A DNA stretch of 64,000 nt from Escherichia phage teqsoen. The stretch is from the sequence record MN895436.1. The stretch is one strand, 5' to 3'. The first letter of the stretch is position 1. The number at the start of each line of letters is the position of its first letter. Position numbers and translations under genes: made by a program. Below the pieces are notes generated by a model. The model was not told the origin of the DNA. It was given only the letters and a program-made list of their open reading frames with translations, and made no database searches. Positions 547-59,851 of this stretch are shown here, in pieces.

Positions 547-756
547 TTAAATTACATGACTATTTATAATAAATTCTCGCGGAACGTTAAAATACCCAAT
601 TTTAGTTAATATAACAACATCACCGTTAATAATTACCGGAGAATAATCTTCTGGAGCATTAAATTTCCAATGGGCTCTAATATTATATCCATCAGAACCA
701 AATGCTCGAGTAGCCGGTCTCCCGGCTTTTTGCCACGCGTAGAAATCAAATTTCAT
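547..756 (-). CDS. hypothetical protein (soc.1 position)
   Basis: 69-aa ORF tightly packed between soc and next ORF. Confidence 0.55.
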   Translation of the reverse strand: MKFDFYAWQKAGRPATRAFGSDGYNIRAHWKFNAPEDYSPVIINGDVVILTKIGYFNVPREFIINSHVI

Positions 757-947
757 TTTGAATGCTCTATAATTAATTTTAAAGCTTCTTCACTGACAAA
801 AATTTCGTCAGGACCTTCTATAACTTCAACCATACGAAGTTGATTAGTTAAGAGCTCACATACGAGCTCCTTGTTATAATCTTTAAATAGCTGGTCAATA
901 CGTTTCTTATGGGCTTTCTTAAGCTGACGCTTATTTAAACGAGCCAT
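753..947 (-). CDS. hypothetical protein (soc.2 position)
   Basis: 64-aa ORF, start overlaps stop of gene 56. Confidence 0.55.
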   Translation of the reverse strand: MARLNKRQLKKAHKKRIDQLFKDYNKELVCELLTNQLRMVEVIEGPDEIFVSEEALKLIIEHSK

Positions 948-1465
948 TAATAACCTCGGTCTTGACGAGCGAAGTTTTCAGCATTTTTCAGGTAATAAAG
1001 TTTAAAGATTTCTTCAGCTGACATTCCAAGAGCAATAAATTTATTCATGAAAAAATGAAATTGGTCAATAAGTTCAAATTTAATTTCAAGCTGATCTTCG
1101 GGAGATAAATCTTGAATTTTCTTGGATTGCATTTCAGAATAACGTTTCTTCCAAGGTTTCCATACAGCAGAAGCTTCTTTTTCGCCATTACTCATACCAC
1201 CGAGAGAAGTATATAGCTCGCGAGTTTCGTCTGCGATATAATCGTCTTGGTTTCGCAGCCAAGCAAGAACTTCTCCTGCAGTTTCAAGTGAATCAGGATG
1301 ACGATTTGTTTCTGGTTTATCATTAGCCAAACGAATCTGTAAATGCCGCTGCATGTCAAGCATAACCTGCAGTGGGTCAATATTGTGCATAATATTCTCA
1401 GCATATGCACGATTTGCTTTATCAACACCTTCGATCAAATGAGCGCATTCATTAAAGTAAGCCAT
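947..1465 (-). CDS. 56: dCTP/dUTP pyrophosphatase (gene 56)
   Basis: T4 gp56-like from MAYFNECAHLIEG; start set at internal ATG 1465, not the GTG at 1558 of the track. Confidence 0.85.
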   Translation of the reverse strand: MAYFNECAHLIEGVDKANRAYAENIMHNIDPLQVMLDMQRHLQIRLANDKPETNRHPDSLETAGEVLAWLRNQDDYIADETRELYTSLGGMSNGEKEASAVWKPWKKRYSEMQSKKIQDLSPEDQLEIKFELIDQFHFFMNKFIALGMSAEEIFKLYYLKNAENFARQDRGY

Positions 1466-1536
1466 TATTTTTCCTTTCAATTCATGGGTTAGTAGATTAA
1501 TTATACAATAAATATATAAAGCAATAAGGAGGACAT

Positions 1537-1737
1537 ATGGTACAAAAATTAATGGCACTTGTTAATGCCATAAAAGGTAATAAAAAACGTATAGCTTTTA
1601 CTATTTCTGCTATGGTAGGAATTTTACTCTGGAACTTTATTTTATCACCAATTGCAATTGCGCATGGTGTTAATATTCCAGTAGTTACTCTTGATACATT
1701 CGTAGATCTAGCATTTGCTTTAGTTGGGTTAATTTAA
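1537..1737 (+). CDS. small hydrophobic protein
   Basis: 66 aa, two hydrophobic segments, AAGGAGG 6 nt upstream of ATG; plus strand inside a minus-strand early region. Confidence 0.45.
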   Translation: MVQKLMALVNAIKGNKKRIAFTISAMVGILLWNFILSPIAIAHGVNIPVVTLDTFVDLAFALVGLI

Positions 1738-2762
1738 ATCTTGGCATATTTAGATAGCCGCATTTTAGCCATCAACCCCTGGGCAATATTATTTTTCATA
1801 TATTCCATAATTTGTTCAGGGGTTGCACCTTCCTTTCTAATCATATCATTGACATCTTTTGATTTCCAGGGAGATTTATCCCAAAACATAACCCTTTCTC
1901 CTGCATCAACTAATTTAGTCATTCGTTTGATAGTGTCAGGGTGACGAGGTTCATTATCTAAAACCCACACTCGTCTATCTTTAAATGGAACAACTTCTAG
2001 GTCTAATTGACCACCCGTAATAGCTATACCATTTTCAATAAAAAGTGAATCTATAGGTCCTTCTAGAACATATACATCACCATCTTTAACTCGTTCGACT
2101 CCATATATTTTTGTTGCCTCAGGATAAGCTTTAATGGTGATATACTTTTGTGGAGCATCTTTCTTTAATGCGCGTCCTTGAAAAGACTCAGCCTTTCCGT
2201 TAGCATTATAAATTGGAATAACAAGACGAGGCTCAGGTATTTCCTTTTTATATGTTCCCGGTACTATGCTATTAACTAATTTAGGCCATTCGGTTGTAAA
2301 CCAAAGATATTTCCATTTATCCTTTGGAATACAACGAGCTTTTACATATTTTATAATTGGATGGTCTTCCACCAGTTTATCTAATCTAACACATGACGGA
2401 AGAGATTTAATTATTTTCTTCTCAGGATGTTTGGGAAGTTCTTTAGGTTTTTCTACTGGACGACTTTTACCTTTTTCTTTTCTTATTTCAAAGATATACT
2501 CACGATATAAATCAGGTTCAAACTCCTTTAAATATATTCCGATTGGTGCATGATAGTTACAGTTATAACAATGAATATTTCCTTCATTATTATCACCATA
2601 ATACCATCCACGAGCTTTATTCTGGTCGGTTTTTGAATCTCCGCAAACAGGGCATCTAAACCGTAATTTAAAAGTTGAACTATTATTTACTTGTGTGAAT
2701 TTAGGTAAATGAGCTAATGCACGATACGCAAACTCATTATCAATCCAAGGTACTGATGACAT
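1734..2762 (-). CDS. 61: DNA primase (gene 61)
   Basis: 342 aa; Zn-ribbon CPVCGDS...CYNC; N-terminus matches T4 gp61. Confidence 0.93.
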   Translation of the reverse strand: MSSVPWIDNEFAYRALAHLPKFTQVNNSSTFKLRFRCPVCGDSKTDQNKARGWYYGDNNEGNIHCYNCNYHAPIGIYLKEFEPDLYREYIFEIRKEKGKSRPVEKPKELPKHPEKKIIKSLPSCVRLDKLVEDHPIIKYVKARCIPKDKWKYLWFTTEWPKLVNSIVPGTYKKEIPEPRLVIPIYNANGKAESFQGRALKKDAPQKYITIKAYPEATKIYGVERVKDGDVYVLEGPIDSLFIENGIAITGGQLDLEVVPFKDRRVWVLDNEPRHPDTIKRMTKLVDAGERVMFWDKSPWKSKDVNDMIRKEGATPEQIMEYMKNNIAQGLMAKMRLSKYAKI

Positions 2763-2928
2763 TTTTACTCTTCTTTTTCTTTAGATTCCTCTTTTTCTTT
2801 TTAGGAATCTGTTCAGGACCTTTATTTACTACAGCGCCCGACGTTGTTCCAGTAGAGATATTTTCAGGATTACCACCTGAATCTCCAGCTACCATATCTT
2901 CTTTAATAAATTCTTTATATGTTTTCAT
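2740..2928 (-). CDS. small basic protein with capsid-targeting-like N-terminus
   Basis: 62 aa; MKTYKEFIKE then Gly/Thr-rich segment and Lys-rich tail; ATG 4 nt after upstream stop. Confidence 0.5.
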   Translation of the reverse strand: MKTYKEFIKEDMVAGDSGGNPENISTGTTSGAVVNKGPEQIPKKKKRNLKKKKSKNVISTLD

Positions 2929-2974
2929 ATTAACCTCTATTCATAAAAGCATTAAAAATTTGGTCATCAATCGA
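2926..2974. repeat. 49-bp direct repeat copy 1 (gene 3' end + RBS + ATG)
   Basis: 47/49 identical to 3284-3332. Confidence 0.8.
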
Positions 2975-3286
2975 TGGAATAGCAACTTTTTCTGCATCAT
3001 TTAGCAAATCATTAATTTCATCGGATAGCATAACACATGTACCTTTATTTCCTGTAATTGTTACTGCGCAATTACGAACGTTTTCTTTATCAAATTTTAG
3101 GTTAATATTTTCGTAGTGAAAATCCTTTAATGCCGAATATATCTTTAAAATGAAATTGTCTTTTACTACAATAAACCCAACCTCACTATTAAAACGTGGT
3201 TCATGGAAACTGTAATAAACCTTTTCATCTATAAAATCGTATGAAATTTTTTCCATTTTTAAATATGAAAATTCAGAACTATACAT
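2930..3286 (-). CDS. hypothetical protein (61.1 position)
   Basis: 118 aa; C-terminus SIDDQIFNAFMNRG shared with upstream ORF. Confidence 0.6.
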   Translation of the reverse strand: MYSSEFSYLKMEKISYDFIDEKVYYSFHEPRFNSEVGFIVVKDNFILKIYSALKDFHYENINLKFDKENVRNCAVTITGNKGTCVMLSDEINDLLNDAEKVAIPSIDDQIFNAFMNRG

Positions 3287-3332
3287 ATTAACCTTTATTC
3301 ATAAAAGCATTAAAAATTTGGTCATCAATAGA
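3284..3332. repeat. 49-bp direct repeat copy 2
   Basis: 47/49 identical to 2926-2974. Confidence 0.8.
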
Positions 3333-3914
3333 AACATTTACTTTAGACTGTTTTTCTGATGGTAATTCATATCCACATATTACAATTTTGTGATCAATAT
3401 CAAAATACACAGAAGCAATATGATTAATGATGTTTTCAGTAAAGTCTAAATCAACATCAATATCTTTTTGACCACAGCCCAAAGGATAAATAATGCGAGT
3501 AATTCGATTATCTTTAACAAATATTCCACCGACATACTCTGTGCTGCGTTTAAAGTCTACATGCCGACGAAATGAAAAATATTCAGGCTCTCTATGAGCT
3601 CGGCTCATAGGACACAACGAGTAACTAGAATAAGAGATGTCAAATCCTACGCCTTCAATATGAGCCAAAGTGTCATGATTAAACCAATTATAATCGTACG
3701 CCAAATCCATTAGATTATAATATGTAAAAGGCACCGGATTAACATCATTAGTCACAAGCATGTAATTAGCAACTGCTATAATTTCATTGTTTTTAACGAA
3801 TACAAACCGTGATTGATGTGAATGACCTGGACCCACGTTTTCACGATTAATGATATAACACTGGGCACCTTTATATTTGTATGTATCTTTGCATTTGTGC
3901 ATTTGATAGAGCAT
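3288..3914 (-). CDS. hypothetical protein (61.2 position)
   Basis: 208 aa; C-terminus SIDDQIFNAFMNKG; stop/start coupled with sp. Confidence 0.6.
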   Translation of the reverse strand: MLYQMHKCKDTYKYKGAQCYIINRENVGPGHSHQSRFVFVKNNEIIAVANYMLVTNDVNPVPFTYYNLMDLAYDYNWFNHDTLAHIEGVGFDISYSSYSLCPMSRAHREPEYFSFRRHVDFKRSTEYVGGIFVKDNRITRIIYPLGCGQKDIDVDLDFTENIINHIASVYFDIDHKIVICGYELPSEKQSKVNVSIDDQIFNAFMNKG

Positions 3915-4737: not shown

Positions 4738-4767
4738 ACTATACCATAGTCTTGTCAGCTTGTAAAC
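4738..4767 (-). promoter_or_regulatory. early promoter upstream of dmd
   Basis: GTTTAC, 18 nt, TGgTATAGT on minus strand. Confidence 0.7.
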
Positions 4768-6194
4768 TAAAATTTTAATTCATTTGCCAAAGCATCTAAC
4801 TGAGCTCGAGTGGATTCATTTCTTTGATAGCGATTCTGCTCAGCCTGAATCTGTTGTGAACCTGCTACTTCACTCACTTCAGTTGGAGTAGAATCTTGTT
4901 CAATTTCTACCCATTTTTGATTTCCTTTTTGAACACCCATCAAAAACTTATTCCACTTATTCTTATCACCATATCGTGATTTGATTTGCTTAATGAGTTG
5001 CTGTTCAGCAGCTGCTAGCTCCTCGGTTTCAATGACCGCAAGCATAAAATCAGCGGTTGCTGGAAGACCAGCAGATTCTGCAATATCGCTCATGTTAACA
5101 TCGGAAGAGTCCCAAGCTTGTTTACCAACCTGTGCTGCAGTCCAAAGAACAGTTTCGGTTTCAACAGCCAGAGCACGCAATTCCTCTGCGATAGCTTTAA
5201 CAGTTGTGTAACTATTTTCTGAGTAAACTCTAATGCGGCAAGATTTACAAATACCTAGATAGTCGACAATAATGATTGTTGGAACAAAATTCTTCTTGAG
5301 CTTTAATTCATTTAAAAGTGATCGAAATGTATTAGCGTCTGCTCCACCAGTAGGATATTGCTTAACGATTAAACGACCAAGGGTAGATTTCTCACGCCAT
5401 TTTTCCATTTTTCCTTTATATTCAGCGTAAGAAATATGTCCATCATCAATGTCATCAAGAGAAACATCAAGCATGTTAGCGTCAATACGCTTAGCACAGA
5501 CTTCTTCTGCCATTTCCATGGAGATATAAAGAACGTTATGACCAAGCTGCAAATAATCTGCTGCTAATGAACAAAGTCCTAATGATTTACCAACGTTAAC
5601 GCCAGCCATTAAAACGTTCAGTGTTCCAGTTTCAGCTCCGCCTTTAGTAATTTTGTTTAGAATTCTGAGTTTAAATGGAACCTTACGAGCTTTATTCATA
5701 TAAGATAGCCAACGCGCTTCATAGTCATCCATCCAATCATGACCAACGTAGCTATCAAATGAAATTGATAATGCTTGGCGCATGATGTCAGGAATAGCAC
5801 CTACATCTGGCATTTTCTTATTTCGTTTTTCCGGAGGAAGCTCAGCATTAGTTTGAATTTCGATTATTTTAGATGTAGCATTAAACATCGCCCTTTGCTG
5901 AACATATTTTTCTGTTTCTTTTACTAACCAGCTGTGGTCTTCTGGAGAATCAGCCAGTTTTGAAATAAGTGTTTTTACACCAGAATATTCTGTTTCAGTA
6001 AATGAACTATTTTCTAATGCAACATTTAACGCATTAATAGATGGAACGCTATGATACTCATTAACATGAGATTTAATTAATTTGAATGTATTTTTAGCTG
6101 GACCACTTTCAAAATATTCTGAATCCATATATGGCCAAACTTTTGAAAAATAAGCTTGATCAAATATGAGATGAGAAAGAATAATTTCTACCAC
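4767..6194 (-). CDS. 41: replicative DNA helicase (gene 41)
   Basis: 475 aa; DnaB-family Walker A GVNVGKS; T4 gp41 length. Confidence 0.94.
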   Translation of the reverse strand: MVEIILSHLIFDQAYFSKVWPYMDSEYFESGPAKNTFKLIKSHVNEYHSVPSINALNVALENSSFTETEYSGVKTLISKLADSPEDHSWLVKETEKYVQQRAMFNATSKIIEIQTNAELPPEKRNKKMPDVGAIPDIMRQALSISFDSYVGHDWMDDYEARWLSYMNKARKVPFKLRILNKITKGGAETGTLNVLMAGVNVGKSLGLCSLAADYLQLGHNVLYISMEMAEEVCAKRIDANMLDVSLDDIDDGHISYAEYKGKMEKWREKSTLGRLIVKQYPTGGADANTFRSLLNELKLKKNFVPTIIIVDYLGICKSCRIRVYSENSYTTVKAIAEELRALAVETETVLWTAAQVGKQAWDSSDVNMSDIAESAGLPATADFMLAVIETEELAAAEQQLIKQIKSRYGDKNKWNKFLMGVQKGNQKWVEIEQDSTPTEVSEVAGSQQIQAEQNRYQRNESTRAQLDALANELKF

Positions 6195-16255: not shown

Positions 16256-16310
16256 GTAATTTCCTTCAATTCAAATGAGATTTAATTTTATAACTAATTT
16301 AATAAAGCAA

Positions 16311-16700
16311 TTAACGATTAAAATCAGCCGCAATTGTTTCCGCAACAATTTGAGCAGCAACAATTAGACGTTCATCTGCATTACCACAATAATCATCTTC
16401 AAGGCGTTCACCACATGAAGTCATAATAAATTTAGCACCGGCGTTTAGGGATTCTGTAGTATGTTTGCGCATTAGTTCAATCCATTTATTACTTACTTCA
16501 CGATCGATAGCTTCATAATACGCATGACGAGCAGGTGCAGATTTAATTTTGTTCTGAATAACTTCCATTGCGTTATCAGAAAGAGACAAAACCCATGCTC
16601 GACGAATTTTATTTTGGTTTTGTGGATTTGATTCAGAACGCACGTGTTTTGGCTGAATATCTTTTACGTCAACAGTATAATTCACAGTAATTTTAGTCAT
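16311..16700 (-). CDS. rpbA: RNA polymerase binding protein RpbA-like
   Basis: 129-aa ORF immediately after gene 45, T4 RpbA length. Confidence 0.7.
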
Positions 16701-16709
16701 AATACACCT

Positions 16710-16898
16710 TTAGTCATAATAATCAGTAACAGTCCAAGCTTCATTTCTATTGGACATTATTTTTGTATATTCTGCTTTAAATGCATTCCTAAGCATAGAT
16801 TCAGTAACTATATGCTCTTCATTAGAAAAATTATTTCTCAGAATATATCGTTTTATTTCAGGAAAAGTTAATAAATGCTGTCCAGTTGAATATTCCAT
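16710..16898 (-). CDS. hypothetical protein
   Basis: 62-aa ORF between 46 and rpbA. Confidence 0.5.
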   Translation of the reverse strand: MEYSTGQHLLTFPEIKRYILRNNFSNEEHIVTESMLRNAFKAEYTKIMSNRNEAWTVTDYYD

Positions 16899-16953
16899 GT
16901 TTTTCCTCCATAGAGATTATACTCTAATAAATTAAAGCATAATCTCTTATAAA

Positions 16954-18636
16954 TTAAACCATTACAGTAAATCGACCAACTTTCTTCATTTGAAGATGCT
17001 GACCGTATGCTTGTGGGTCATGGTCTCTATGCGAAATAACAAAAACATTAGTATTTTTTAAACTATCTAAAATAGTTGAAATAGCTTTTACACCTTCAAC
17101 GTCGGTCGCTGAATCAAAAACTTCATCAAGAATTAGTGTGTTTATTTTAACACCTGAAACTTTTTCAGCAATATCACGCCAAGTAAATAAAAGAGCAATA
17201 TCAATTCGCGCTTTTTCACCTTGACTGAATGAAGCATAACTAAAATCTTCACGACCACGGGATTTAATTGTCTCATTAAATTCTTCATCTAATGTAAACA
17301 CATAATCCGCTTCCATTATTTTAAGATAATGGTTAATCTGCTTATTAAATAATGGAATGTACTTTTTAATAATAGCACCTTTAATACCAGAATCTTTGAG
17401 CATATCAGTCAAAATTCCTCGGTGGTATTTTTCCATTACTAAATTAGTTTTTGTCTTAACAATTTTATCAAGTTCTTCTTGAAGCAGTGCTATTTCATCA
17501 GCATGGTCAATAAACTCAGAAGATGCTTTTTCTATAGCTGCTTTAACTTTTTTAGCTTTATCTACTGTCGTGATTAGAGATTGCTTTTTATTGCGAATAT
17601 CATTTGCCAACGACTGCTGGGTTTTAATATTATCTCGGTATTCATCAACAAGAACTTTTAAATTATCACGGTGTGTTGAAAGCTGTTCAAACGAATGCGT
17701 GCATTCAGAAACTTTATCTTTAATTTTAGAAACAACTTTATCACCGGAACTCAATTGTGACAAACAGGTTGGACATAATCCACCTTCGTGATACATATTA
17801 ATGACTTTATTATACGAGTCAATTTTTGATTTAATTAAAACTGCTTCTTGACCGATTTTATTAAATGCATCAGTCGGGTCTTCGTCTAAAACAATATTAA
17901 CTAATCTTTCATTAGCTTCTTCTATTTCCGATTTTAGCGTTCTAGCTTCTTTTGCCAAATCATCATACATATTTTGCAGACGAGTAAGATTGTCACCCGT
18001 TAATTTTTTCTGGCGTTCAACGTTATCATTATATATTTTAATTTGTTGGATAATACTATCTTTTTTAACATCAAGCACTTGGTTTTGTGAATTTAATTCA
18101 CGTATTAGTGCTTTATTAAGCTTATCCATTTCAGCTAATGTTCCTACCTCAAGCAGGTCTTCCACAAGCTTTCTTCGTGCAGGGGTCGACAAACCCATGA
18201 AAGGGGTATACCCTGCTGTACCAAGGACAACAATCTGCTTGAAACTGGCATATGACATTCCGATAAGCTGTTCAAATTCTGCTTGGAAATCTTTACTGCT
18301 GGCAGATTCATTAAGACGTGTACCGTTAACGGTGATTTCGAAAACGTTTGGTTTTTGTCCTCTTTTGATATAGTACTTTTTCTCATCATATTCCATCCAC
18401 AGTTCAACTAAAAGTTCTTTCTTATTTGTGCTGTTTATTAATTGACCTTTCTTTACATCACGAAATGGTTTGCCAAAAAGCCCAAATGTGATGGCTTCTA
18501 ACATAGTAGACTTACCACCGCCATTTCGTCCAGTAATAAGAGTTTTTTGAACCTTATCTAATTGAATGTCAATAGGATTTCCACCTACTGACATTATATT
18601 TTGATACCTAACTCGGTTTAGTTTAAAATTCTTCAC
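16954..18636 (-). CDS. 46: recombination nuclease ATPase subunit (gene 46, Rad50/SbcC-like)
   Basis: 560 aa; Walker A GRNGGGKST, coiled-coil middle, CPTC hook. Confidence 0.94.
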   Translation of the reverse strand: MKNFKLNRVRYQNIMSVGGNPIDIQLDKVQKTLITGRNGGGKSTMLEAITFGLFGKPFRDVKKGQLINSTNKKELLVELWMEYDEKKYYIKRGQKPNVFEITVNGTRLNESASSKDFQAEFEQLIGMSYASFKQIVVLGTAGYTPFMGLSTPARRKLVEDLLEVGTLAEMDKLNKALIRELNSQNQVLDVKKDSIIQQIKIYNDNVERQKKLTGDNLTRLQNMYDDLAKEARTLKSEIEEANERLVNIVLDEDPTDAFNKIGQEAVLIKSKIDSYNKVINMYHEGGLCPTCLSQLSSGDKVVSKIKDKVSECTHSFEQLSTHRDNLKVLVDEYRDNIKTQQSLANDIRNKKQSLITTVDKAKKVKAAIEKASSEFIDHADEIALLQEELDKIVKTKTNLVMEKYHRGILTDMLKDSGIKGAIIKKYIPLFNKQINHYLKIMEADYVFTLDEEFNETIKSRGREDFSYASFSQGEKARIDIALLFTWRDIAEKVSGVKINTLILDEVFDSATDVEGVKAISTILDSLKNTNVFVISHRDHDPQAYGQHLQMKKVGRFTVMV

Positions 18637-18896
18637 AAAAGATTCCTTTTAATGTATCTTTTAGACCATTCTATCATATCATCATAATCTAAAAAGTATT
18701 CATCAAATTCAGCCATGCAAACAACACCTTGTGCTGCTTTTGATGTGATATAAATTATTCCAACATATCTAGAATCTTCTTCGGTATAATCAATATTTGC
18801 TATGAATTCATCATTAATGTCAAATGTCGAAAACTTCACAGTATGCATCCTTAATACAAGATACAGCCATATCTTGTAATGATTTAGGTGTGTCAT
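18633..18896 (-). CDS. hypothetical protein
   Basis: 87-aa ORF; true start uncertain (overlaps next ORF). Confidence 0.4.
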   Translation of the reverse strand: MTHLNHYKIWLYLVLRMHTVKFSTFDINDEFIANIDYTEEDSRYVGIIYITSKAAQGVVCMAEFDEYFLDYDDMIEWSKRYIKRNLL

Positions 18897-19083
18897 TATC
18901 TAAAATGTTGAAGTTAAAAGATACAGCCCAGTCAGTGCAGACCGTAACCTTTTTAATACAATTATCTTCAACCTCTAACGGTTCAAACCAATATTCAATA
19001 ATTTCTTTATGACCAATATCATCTTTTACTTCGCATTCAAAATGCTGACTCATCATAACATTTTTAAATTCATCAAAAGTCAT
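18820..19083 (-). CDS. hypothetical protein
   Basis: 87-aa acidic ORF, start overlaps gene 47 stop. Confidence 0.5.
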   Translation of the reverse strand: MTFDEFKNVMMSQHFECEVKDDIGHKEIIEYWFEPLEVEDNCIKKVTVCTDWAVSFNFNILDNDTPKSLQDMAVSCIKDAYCEVFDI

Positions 19084-28275: not shown

Positions 28276-28324
28276 AATAAAATCCTTACCTTAAATAGAT
28301 AAGGGTATTTATTATTTTCAAGTA

Positions 28325-48502: not shown

Positions 48503-49471
<969 letters not shown>

Positions 49472-59828: not shown

Positions 59829-59836
59829 TATAAATA
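59829..59836 (+). promoter_or_regulatory. late promoter motif for 53-5 operon
   Basis: TATAAATA on plus strand 29 nt upstream of gene 53 ATG; CAGGAGG RBS. Confidence 0.7.
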
Positions 59837-59843
59837 GATAATA

Positions 59844-59851
59844 TATTTATA
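59844..59851 (-). promoter_or_regulatory. late promoter motif for gene 4/2/3 direction
   Basis: TATAAATA on minus strand, divergent from the plus-strand motif. Confidence 0.65.

What the first reader, a model, noticed from the sequence alone, without database searches (positions are those of the whole stretch)
1466..1737. Only 270 bp between genes 56 and 61, with a plus-strand small membrane-protein ORF
In T4 as I recall it, gene 69 and dam lie between 56 and 61; here that interval is short and holds no methyltransferase. Instead a 66-aa ORF on the opposite strand (1537-1737) with two hydrophobic segments is preceded by AAGGAGG at ideal spacing. A convergently oriented gene inside an early transcription unit is unusual, and absence of Dam changes the predicted DNA modification state.
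Basis: partly seen in the sequence, partly recalled or inferred. Interest (0 to 1): 0.45.

Follow-up and report, generated by a model that had tools for sequence, protein, structure and literature searches.

The report
Conserved small membrane gene beside primase
The short gap between the dCTPase and primase genes of this T4-like phage holds a real, widely conserved but uncharacterised 66-residue membrane-protein gene that T4 itself also carries, and the missing Dam methylase gene is simply the commonest natural variant of this locus.

Summary
Gene 56 (947-1465, minus) and gene 61 (1734-2762, minus) are 268 bp apart, with no methyltransferase between them. A 66-codon plus-strand ORF (1537-1737) follows AAGGAGG.

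The ORF does not replace dam. T4 has the same ORF (97% identical) between dam and 61, unannotated in its reference record. T4 "gene 69" is an old misreading of 56+segF and lies on the other side of 56.

The dam-less junction occurs in 322 phage records, about 64% of Tequatroviruses. The closest relative has no Dam anywhere in its genome.

The ORF is a real gene of family phrog_2024:
- It keeps the same position in at least 9 genera.
- dN/dS is 0.15-0.4.
- The Shine-Dalgarno site is conserved.
- A T4 late-promoter core (ATAAATA, or ATTAAATA) sits just upstream in 15 of 15 loci.
- In the closest relative it is the only plus-strand gene in the first 74 kb.

It most likely encodes a late-expressed inner-membrane protein with its N-terminus in the cytoplasm. 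Its specific role is unknown. The 71-bp spacer also holds the MotA-dependent promoter of gene 56, and the ORF's 5' end contains a terminator-like hairpin for gene 61 on the opposite strand.

This is ordinary as a locus variant and mildly interesting as a gap in T4's annotation.

The parts
947..1465 (-). Gene 56 (dCTPase/dUTPase), 172 aa
   Evidence: ORF list. phrog_173 at E 2.4e-44. Annotated as 56 in UFV-AREG1 and T4.
1500..1526 (-). MotA-dependent middle promoter of gene 56: MotA box TATTGCTTTA (1526->1517), 11-nt spacer, -10 TATAAT (1505->1500). Homologous to T4 P(M)16.53, which T4's record links to oriA.
   Evidence: Read directly from the sequence. It is a perfect match to the consensus (a/t)(a/t)(a/t)TGCTTtA placed 12+/-1 bp from TAtaaT (PMC2988021). 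The homologous T4 promoter is annotated in X01416 and the oriA note is in NC_000866. Activity was not tested.
1507..1514 (+). Late-promoter-like motif AATAAATA, the A(-13) variant of T4 TATAAATA. Predicted transcription start near 1520.
   Evidence: The motif is at 1508-1514. ATAAATA is depleted in the window (16 sites against 39+/-6.5 expected), and 7 of the other 15 sites directly precede a Shine-Dalgarno site and ATG; by position in UFV-AREG1 these are soc, e (two sites), 49, the rI region and the 4/53 pair. ATAAATA or ATTAAATA lies 2-13 nt upstream of the Shine-Dalgarno site in 15 of 15 loci from at least 9 genera. A(-13) is the commonest T4 variant, at 9 of 50 sites (PMC2988020).
1526..1532 (+). 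Shine-Dalgarno AAGGAGG, 4 nt before the ATG
   Evidence: Sequence. GGAGG or AGGAG is kept at this place in all 15 loci.
1537..1737 (+). 66-aa small membrane-protein gene (phrog_2024; = RB32ORF030w / RB69ORF029w; unannotated in the T4 reference)
   Evidence: phrog_2024 at E 1.5e-31. tblastn finds 692 phage records. dN/dS is 0.15-0.4. The gene is syntenic in Tequatro-, Mosig-, Gapriver-, Dhaka-, Jiaoda-, Gelderland-, Kanagawa- and Moonvirus and in unclassified Straboviridae. The AlphaFold2 model has pLDDT 78.5 with helices at 2-12, 16-42 and 52-63.
1542..1571 (-). Terminator-like hairpin (1571->1552, ATGGCATTAACAAGTGCCAT) plus T-run (TAATTTTTGT) on the minus strand, inside codons 6-12 of the small ORF. 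Candidate terminator of the gene 61 transcript, just upstream of the MotA promoter.
   Evidence: Terminator scan. Fold energy -9.9 kcal/mol, z -2.4. A terminator is annotated at the homologous place in fPS-65. A stronger hairpin sits at the same relative place in Gelderlandvirus STP4-a (z -4.1), but there is none in Mosigvirus or Gaprivervirus.
1734..2762 (-). Gene 61 (DNA primase), 342 aa, convergent with the small ORF. The two coding regions overlap by 4 nt.
   Evidence: ORF list. phrog_47 at E 7.9e-106.
1523..1527 (.). Junction where T4 and T2-type relatives carry the dam cassette (780 bp to about 1.4 kb) and the window does not
   Evidence: Alignment of the window with both T4 and S2_01 junctions. 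Homology switches from the 56-dam spacer to the dam-ORF spacer at GCAAT|AAGGAGG, which is the dam stop codon on one side and the Shine-Dalgarno site of the small ORF on the other.

Best explanation
The 56-61 interval of this Tequatrovirus is the majority, dam-less form of a variable locus. Its 268 bp are densely used.

Minus strand: a terminator-like hairpin probably ends the primase (61) transcript. It is followed by a perfect MotA-dependent middle promoter that drives gene 56.

Plus strand: a gp55-type late promoter (AATAAATA, predicted start near 1520) and a strong Shine-Dalgarno site drive a 66-residue protein. That protein has a basic cytoplasmic N-terminus (+5), one transmembrane helix carrying an invariant W-N-[F/Y]...P motif, and a short acidic or hydrophobic C-terminal tail (HG..P...[D/E]) that is probably periplasmic or at the membrane interface.

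The protein is a conserved accessory membrane protein of the enterobacterial T-even group, made late in infection. It most plausibly acts at the cell envelope, for example in lysis timing or lysis inhibition, exclusion, or another late membrane step. Late transcription would also run antisense into gene 61.

What is shown: the gene is real, conserved and syntenic; the promoter, Shine-Dalgarno and terminator motifs are present and conserved; dam is absent.

What is inferred: late timing, membrane topology, and any envelope role.
For: Real gene:
- phrog_2024, full length, E 1.5e-31; all 17 diverse members match it.
- 692 phage records by tblastn.
- Remote relatives at 25-30% identity share the W-N-[FY], P, G, P and acidic positions.
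- The position is always between 56 (or dam, or a mazG-like gene) and 61, convergent with 61.
- dN/dS is 0.15-0.4 with saturated dS, and codon-position differences are 30/12/39.

Late promoter:
- ATAAATA is under-represented in the window (16 against 39+/-6.5).
- Seven of the other 15 sites lie just before a Shine-Dalgarno site and ATG; by position in UFV-AREG1 these are soc, e, 49, the rI region and the 4/53 pair.
- The motif precedes the Shine-Dalgarno site in 15 of 15 loci even where the flanks are unrelated.
- In dam+ phages the motif lies in the dam-proximal spacer. In the dam-less type it lies inside the spacer of the opposite-strand MotA promoter, where T4 has a different sequence.
- A(-13) is the commonest T4 variant.
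- The gene has the polarity of the late structural genes and is the only such gene in 74 kb of UFV-AREG1.
- No sigma-70-like plus-strand promoter was found upstream.

Membrane protein: hydropathy and the AlphaFold2 helices.

dam: absent from the window and from the whole genome of the closest relative. The same junction is in 322 records, against 182 records with T4-type Dam.
Against: - I found no expression data, either RNA or protein. Nothing in the literature library mentions RB32ORF030w or RB69ORF029w.
- The promoter is a variant, not the perfect TATAAATA. The review cautions that the in vivo strength of variant late promoters is unknown.
- Three lineages have ATTAAATA, a two-position change.
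- The second hydrophobic segment leaves the topology ambiguous: N-in/C-out, or a helical hairpin.
- No similarity to any protein of known function was found in Pfam, NCBIfam, PADLOC, PDB or BFVD, so the envelope role is a guess from size, location and timing.
- The minus-strand hairpin is weak (8 bp, 3 G-C pairs) and is not conserved in Mosigvirus or Gaprivervirus.
Confidence: 0.72

Rival explanations
1. The ORF is not translated. The region is conserved because it carries the gene 61 terminator and the promoters of dam/56, and the open frame is incidental.
For: A terminator-like hairpin and a MotA promoter do overlap the ORF's 5' end and its upstream region. T4, T2 and JS10 reference records do not annotate the ORF. 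Spurious ORFs of similar length are common in this AT-rich DNA.
Against: The regulatory elements cover only the first ~35 nt of the ORF. The remaining ~165 nt stay open in at least 9 genera at about 40% nucleotide divergence. Second codon positions are the least changed, dN/dS is below 0.4, and there is a conserved protein motif and Shine-Dalgarno site. The hairpin is absent in Mosigvirus and Gaprivervirus, where the ORF persists.
Confidence: 0.05
2. The gene is real but is not a late gene. It would be transcribed early or middle from an unrecognised promoter, or constitutively at a low level, and the ATAAATA motif would be irrelevant.
For: The motif is a variant in most lineages. Activity of variant late promoters in vivo is uncertain. 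There is no timing data.
Against: [quoted passage not shown] No sigma-70-like plus-strand promoter was found. The motif is otherwise avoided in the genome and is conserved in position in 15 of 15 loci.
Confidence: 0.12
3. The protein is a holin, antiholin or pinholin-like lysis protein, as one UniProt entry names a homologue.
For: It is small, membrane-embedded and probably made late. UniRef/BFVD name the phage OE5505 homologue 'Holin'. One family member hits GTA_holin_3TM weakly, at E 0.1.
Against: The name is an untested label on one record, while hundreds of others say 'hypothetical'. There is no Pfam holin match at a meaningful E-value. It lacks the charged C-terminal tail typical of holins. 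It is not next to the endolysin e, the holin t, or the pseT.2/pseT.3 genes (T4's spanin genes, as I recall), all of which lie elsewhere. T-even phages already have the T holin.
Confidence: 0.1
4. The main function of the locus is RNA-level. Late plus-strand transcription produces antisense RNA that shuts down primase (61) expression, and the peptide is secondary.
For: The ORF ends inside the stop codon of gene 61. No plus-strand terminator was found before about 2418. Both T4 strands are known to be transcribed at some sites at different times.
Against: Jiaodavirus has a strong G+C hairpin between the ORF and 61, which would block read-through there, yet it keeps the ORF. Gaprivervirus DK-13 has a homing endonuclease gene between the two. 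Purifying selection acts on the protein sequence.
Confidence: 0.08

Closest known systems
phrog_2024 / RB69ORF029w / RB32ORF030w (hypothetical proteins of T4-like phages)
   Same: The family matches over its full length (E 1.5e-31). Proteins 100% identical to the window's are already deposited, for example in UFV-AREG1. Position and orientation beside the primase gene are the same.
   Different: Nothing differs; this is the family. It has no assigned function, and the T4, T2 and JS10 reference records lack the gene.
T4 late genes with a short leader (soc, e, 49, 4/53 in this window)
   Same: The layout is the same: a TATAAATA-type motif, then 13-30 nt, then a Shine-Dalgarno site and ATG. The A(-13) variant is shared with the site before gene 49.
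   Different: Late expression of this ORF is untested. The gene sits alone in the early region, and its promoter is interleaved with an opposite-strand MotA promoter.
Class II holins / pinholins (e.g. phage 21 S21, about 70 aa, two transmembrane domains)
   Same: Similar size, hydrophobicity and probable late timing.
   Different: There is no sequence or profile similarity. It lacks a charged C-terminal tail and a conserved dual-start motif. It is not in a lysis cassette, and its second hydrophobic segment is short and acidic.
PeSL / PmSL promoter-stem-loop modules of T4-like phages (Arbiol 2010; Comeau 2014, PMC4122927)
   Same: On the minus strand a stem-loop lies just upstream of a promoter, a Shine-Dalgarno site and a start codon. 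The promoter is early in front of dam in T4 and MotA-type in front of 56 here. This sits at the edge of an indel, as described for PeSL-mediated cassette exchange.
   Different: The paper does not list this locus in the passages I read. Here the stem-loop lies inside a coding sequence of the other strand. Recombination at this element is inferred only.
T4/T2 dam locus
   Same: The flanking genes 56 and 61 and the small ORF are the same.
   Different: The window lacks dam, and also the 186-aa DpnII-like ORF that accompanies dam in 154 records, including T2. T4 keeps dam only.

Membership tests
phrog_2024 (T-even small hypothetical protein beside primase) | Significant full-length match to the family profile | tested here: met
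   E 1.5e-31, residues 2-66 against profile positions 1-65 of 65. All 17 diverse relatives match.
phrog_2024 (T-even small hypothetical protein beside primase) | Conserved position: convergent with gene 61, divergent from 56/dam | tested here: met
   Seen in 15 loci from at least 9 genera.
T4 late gene | TATAAATA-type motif about 6 nt upstream of the transcription start, with no -35 element | tested here: met
   AATAAATA at 1507-1514, the A(-13) variant found at 9 of 50 T4 sites. The motif is conserved in 15 of 15 loci.
T4 late gene | Transcription that depends on gp55/gp33/gp45 and starts after DNA replication | not testable with these tools
   No expression data are available. It needs time-resolved, strand-specific RNA 5'-end mapping.
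Holin (class II / pinholin-like) | Small protein with one or more transmembrane domains | tested here: met
   One clear transmembrane helix (16-42) plus a hydrophobic tail.
Holin (class II / pinholin-like) | Hydrophilic, highly charged C-terminal domain | tested here: not met
   The C-terminus ...DLAFALVGLI is hydrophobic. The charge cluster is N-terminal.
Holin (class II / pinholin-like) | Sequence or profile similarity to a described holin family | tested here: not met
   Pfam and NCBIfam give no match at E<=10 for the window protein. The best result among relatives is a single E 0.1 hit.
Holin (class II / pinholin-like) | Location in a lysis cassette next to endolysin or spanin genes | tested here: not met
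   The neighbours are 56 and 61. The genes e, t and pseT.2/pseT.3 lie elsewhere in UFV-AREG1.
Holin (class II / pinholin-like) | Forms lethal membrane lesions that release endolysin | not testable with these tools
   Requires expression experiments.
Dam (GATC N6-adenine methyltransferase) at the 56-61 locus | A Dam-homologous ORF between 56 and 61, or anywhere in the window | tested here: not met
   tblastn of T4 Dam against the window gives a best E of 0.38. The positive control on T4 gives E 5e-178.
PeSL/PmSL recombination module | Stem-loop immediately upstream of an early or middle promoter, a Shine-Dalgarno site and a start codon, at an indel boundary | tested here: met
   Hairpin at 1571-1552, MotA promoter at 1526-1500, gene 56 start at 1465, and the dam indel junction at about 1525.
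PeSL/PmSL recombination module | Repeated copies elsewhere in the genome that can recombine | not tested
   I did not search the window for further copies of this stem-loop and promoter unit.

The most novel reading that the evidence does not exclude
T4 and its enterobacterial relatives encode a previously overlooked late membrane effector, missing from the T4 reference annotation. It is the only clockwise gene in the 74-kb early region. It would take part in a late envelope process whose components are thought to be fully known, such as holin T / RI lysis-inhibition control or late exclusion. The gene is also dual-coded: its 5' end serves as the terminator of the primase transcript on the other strand, and its late transcript is antisense to primase.
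Probability: 0.15. Interest if true: 0.55.

Novelty: already known. Interest (0 to 1): 0.27.

Why it matters
For this scan, the finding resolves to an ordinary locus variant plus a catalogued hypothetical gene.

What remains of some value:
- The T4 reference annotation (NC_000866/AF158101), and those of T2 and JS10, lack a gene that is under purifying selection across at least 9 genera. Omics studies that rely on those annotations cannot see it.
- The gene is a clean candidate for a late, envelope-located accessory function in the best-studied phage, and it is easy to knock out.
- The Dam polymorphism now reads as the presence or absence of a GATC restriction-modification-like cassette (dam with or without a DpnII-like ORF) at a promoter/stem-loop boundary. 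This is relevant for predicting m6A status and restriction sensitivity of therapeutic T4-like phages.

Tried and rejected
- Pfam, NCBIfam and PADLOC scans of the 66-aa protein gave no hits.
- A Pfam scan of 17 diverse relatives gave only isolated chance-level hits at E>=0.02.
- A profile search against PDB sequences returned only chance matches to transmembrane helices of acetylcholine receptors, at E>=0.1.
- Foldseek against viral predicted structures returned only family members. One carries an untested 'Holin' label.
- The word-indexed protein search found only close relatives. The exhaustive profile search found just 9 proteins among 1.84 billion representatives, so the family is narrow.
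- Literature searches found nothing relevant: T4 ribosome profiling or unannotated small proteins, T4 start-site and antisense work, and the ORF names. The Miller 2003 T4 genome review is not held, so I could not check its list of late promoters and terminators.
- I considered that the window's phage might carry dam elsewhere. That cannot be tested beyond 64 kb, so I used the closest relative's whole genome as a proxy.
- I considered a conserved gene 61 terminator as the reason for conservation. I rejected it because the hairpin is lineage-restricted.
- I considered a dual-start (M1/M6) holin/antiholin motif. I rejected it because M6 is absent outside Tequatrovirus.

Full report
**What the window is.** The window is a Tequatrovirus (T4-like) genome segment. 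It is about 97.5-98% identical to many deposited phages, such as UFV-AREG1 and KAW1E185, and identical to none. Around the finding, every gene except one lies on the minus strand:
- soc (285-530);
- two small ORFs (547-756 and 753-947);
- gene 56, dCTPase (947-1465);
- gene 61, primase (1734-2762);
- further on, gene 41 (4767-6194).

**The observation.** The interval between 56 and 61 is 1466-1733, and it holds no methyltransferase. T4 Dam finds nothing in the whole 64 kb (best E 0.38), while the T4 control gives E 5e-178. A 66-codon plus-strand ORF (1537-1737) follows AAGGAGG (1526-1532) after a 4-nt spacer. Its stop codon overlaps that of gene 61.

**Comparison with T4.** In NC_000866 the order is soc, segF, 56 (16270-16785), dam (16846-17625), a 310-bp unannotated gap, then 61 (17935-18963).
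- 'Gene 69' of the 1984 record X01416 spans what is now 56 plus segF, on the soc side of 56.
- The unannotated T4 gap contains the same plus-strand ORF (17738-17938, 97% amino-acid identity). A newer T4 record annotates it as hypothetical. RB14 and RB51 call it RB32ORF030w, and RB69 calls it RB69ORF029w.
- The ORF is therefore a constant neighbour of the primase gene, not a replacement for dam.

**The dam polymorphism.** Alignment of the junctions shows that the window equals T4 minus one segment. That segment runs from the dam stop codon to just before the small ORF's Shine-Dalgarno site.

| Haplotype at the 56-61 interval | Records | Source |
|---|---|---|
| Dam-less junction as in the window (>=95% identity over 70 bp; 218 at >=99%), including RB9, Shfl2 and ime09 | 322 | |
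| T4-type Dam at >=90% identity | 182 | |
| Of the Dam+ records, those also carrying a 186-aa ORF next to dam (including T2) | 154 | |
| The small ORF at >=90% identity | 502 | |

- About 64% of Tequatrovirus records are dam-less at this locus.
- UFV-AREG1 has no Dam homologue anywhere in its 167 kb.
- Mosig-, Gapriver-, Dhaka-, Jiaoda- and Gelderlandvirus also lack dam at this place.
- The 186-aa ORF has a D...EIK motif and weak similarity to DpnII (Pfam E 0.0023, below the curated cut-off) and to PADLOC REase_II (E 1e-4). DpnII is, as I recall, a GATC enzyme.
- The variable element therefore looks like a GATC restriction-modification-like cassette. T4 keeps only the methylase and the window keeps nothing.
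- Absence of dam is a common natural state, not a peculiarity of this phage. I could not test the rest of this phage's genome.

**Is the small ORF a gene?** ORF length alone is not evidence here, because spurious ORFs of 60-100 codons lie antisense to gene 61. The evidence is comparative:
- The protein matches phrog_2024 over its full length (E 1.5e-31).
- tblastn finds it in 692 phage records: 502 at >=90% identity and 190 at about 45-56%.
- A profile of 18 diverse members, searched against 1.84 billion representative proteins, found only 9 proteins. These include relatives at 25-30% identity, which tblastn places in Jiaoda-, Gelderland-, Kanagawa-, Moon- and Dhakavirus and in unclassified Straboviridae.
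- In every locus inspected, the gene is convergent with the primase gene and divergent from 56, dam or a mazG-like gene.
- Between genera, dS is saturated and dN/dS is 0.15-0.4. Differences by codon position are 30/12/39.
- A GGAGG-type Shine-Dalgarno site is kept in all 15 loci.
- Invariant or nearly invariant residues are W32, N33, P38, G44, P48 and an acidic residue at position 52.

I take the gene as real (about 0.9).

**Expression.** The core of the T4 late promoter, ATAAATA, occurs only 16 times on both strands of the window, against 39+/-6.5 in shuffles.
- Seven of the other 15 sites lie 13-30 nt before a Shine-Dalgarno site and ATG. By position in UFV-AREG1 these are soc, e (two sites), 49, the rI region and the divergent 4/53 pair.
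- The site at 1507-1514 (AATAAATA) lies 22 nt before the small ORF's ATG.
- A(-13) is the commonest variant among the 50 listed T4 late promoters, at 9 sites (PMC2988020).
- Ten loci were examined first and five more as a held-out check. Twelve of the 15 have ATAAATA (one a perfect TATAAATA) and three have ATTAAATA. In all 15 the motif lies 2-13 nt upstream of the Shine-Dalgarno site, including where the flanking sequence is unrelated.
- In dam+ phages the motif lies in the dam-proximal spacer, and that version resembles the one in Dhakavirus. In the dam-less type it lies inside the spacer of the opposite-strand MotA promoter, where T4 has a different sequence. This looks like selection to keep a late promoter in front of the ORF.
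[quoted passage not shown] No sigma-70-like plus-strand promoter was found.
- In UFV-AREG1 this is the only plus-strand feature among the first 152 features, covering 0-74.4 kb.

I infer late, gp55-dependent expression (about 0.7). No experimental data were found.

**The other strand.** The 71-bp spacer also carries a perfect MotA box (TATTGCTTTA, 1526->1517), an 11-nt spacer and TATAAT (1505->1500).
- This matches the consensus in PMC2988021 and the T4 promoter P(M)16.53 in front of 56. The T4 record links that transcript to oriA.
- Codons 6-12 of the small ORF form, on the minus strand, an 8-bp hairpin followed by TAATTTTTGT. A terminator is annotated there in fPS-65. This is probably the end of the gene 61 transcript.
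- The hairpin is not conserved in Mosigvirus or Gaprivervirus. In Jiaodavirus a G+C hairpin sits between the ORF and 61 instead.
- A stem-loop followed by a promoter at an indel boundary is the layout described for PeSL/PmSL modules (PMC4122927). That gives a plausible route for gain or loss of the dam cassette, but this is an inference.

**The protein.** AlphaFold2 (18-sequence alignment, pLDDT 78.5) gives helices at 2-12, 16-42 and 52-63.
- The N-terminal 18 residues carry +5 charge and no acidic residue. The tail after the transmembrane helix carries two conserved acidic residues.
- The positive-inside rule favours an N-terminus in the cytoplasm and a C-terminus outside. A helical hairpin is not excluded.
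- No known family, solved structure or defence-related profile matches.
- One UniProt homologue is labelled 'Holin'. The holin features I could test, which are a charged C-terminus, family similarity and a lysis-cassette context, are not met.

My best statement is a late inner-membrane accessory protein of the enterobacterial T-even group with an envelope-related role. The specific role is unknown.

**Verdict.** The locus is the majority dam-less haplotype. The ORF is a catalogued, uncharacterised, conserved gene that T4 also has. Novelty is low: identical proteins are already deposited. The residual interest lies in the T4 annotation gap, the probable late promoter and the compact two-strand layout.

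Noticed in passing
L002 (Shigella phage S2_01) 2906-3466, minus strand; also fPS-65 g033c and T2: A 186-aa ORF lies between dam and the small ORF in 154 Tequatrovirus records. It has a D...EIK motif and weak hits to the DpnII restriction endonuclease family (Pfam E 0.0023, below the cut-off) and to PADLOC REase_II (E 1e-4). Together with dam it looks like a GATC restriction-modification-like cassette. T4 has dam only and the window has neither.
   Followed up: partly
window, whole 64 kb: GATC is three-fold under-represented (75 sites against 223+/-12 in dinucleotide-preserving shuffles), even though this phage has no dam at the usual locus.
   Followed up: no
window, whole 64 kb (e.g. 561-567, 28306-28312, 49011-49030, 59830-59850): ATAAATA is depleted (16 sites against 39+/-6.5). 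Half of the sites, counting the one before the small ORF, sit directly before a Shine-Dalgarno site and ATG. This fits avoidance of spurious late promoters.
   Followed up: partly
window 2926-2974 and 3284-3332: A 49-nt direct repeat (96% identical, 358 bp apart) brackets a 118-aa ORF (2930-3286). It encodes the shared C-terminus ...IDDQIFNAFMN(R/K)G of that ORF and of the adjacent 61.2-like ORF (3288-3914). T4 has only 61.2, UFV-AREG1 has only the 118-aa ORF, and the window and S2_01 have both. This looks like repeat-mediated module gain or loss.
   Followed up: partly
window 547-947, minus strand: Where T4 has the homing endonuclease gene segF between soc and 56, the window has two small ORFs. 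One is 69 aa (DUF7422, E 6.7e-45; PHROG label 'head protein') and the other is 64 aa (PHROG label 'virion structural protein').
   Followed up: no
NC_000866/AF158101 (T4) 17738-17938; NC_054931 (T2) 16645-16836; NC_012741 (JS10), L017 359-559: Three reference genomes do not annotate the conserved small ORF, although hundreds of newer records do.
   Followed up: yes
L005 (Gaprivervirus DK-13) 2872-3621: A homing endonuclease gene is inserted between the small ORF and the primase gene. In STP4-a another one lies just upstream of the primase gene. The primase neighbourhood appears to be a hot spot for mobile elements.
   Followed up: no
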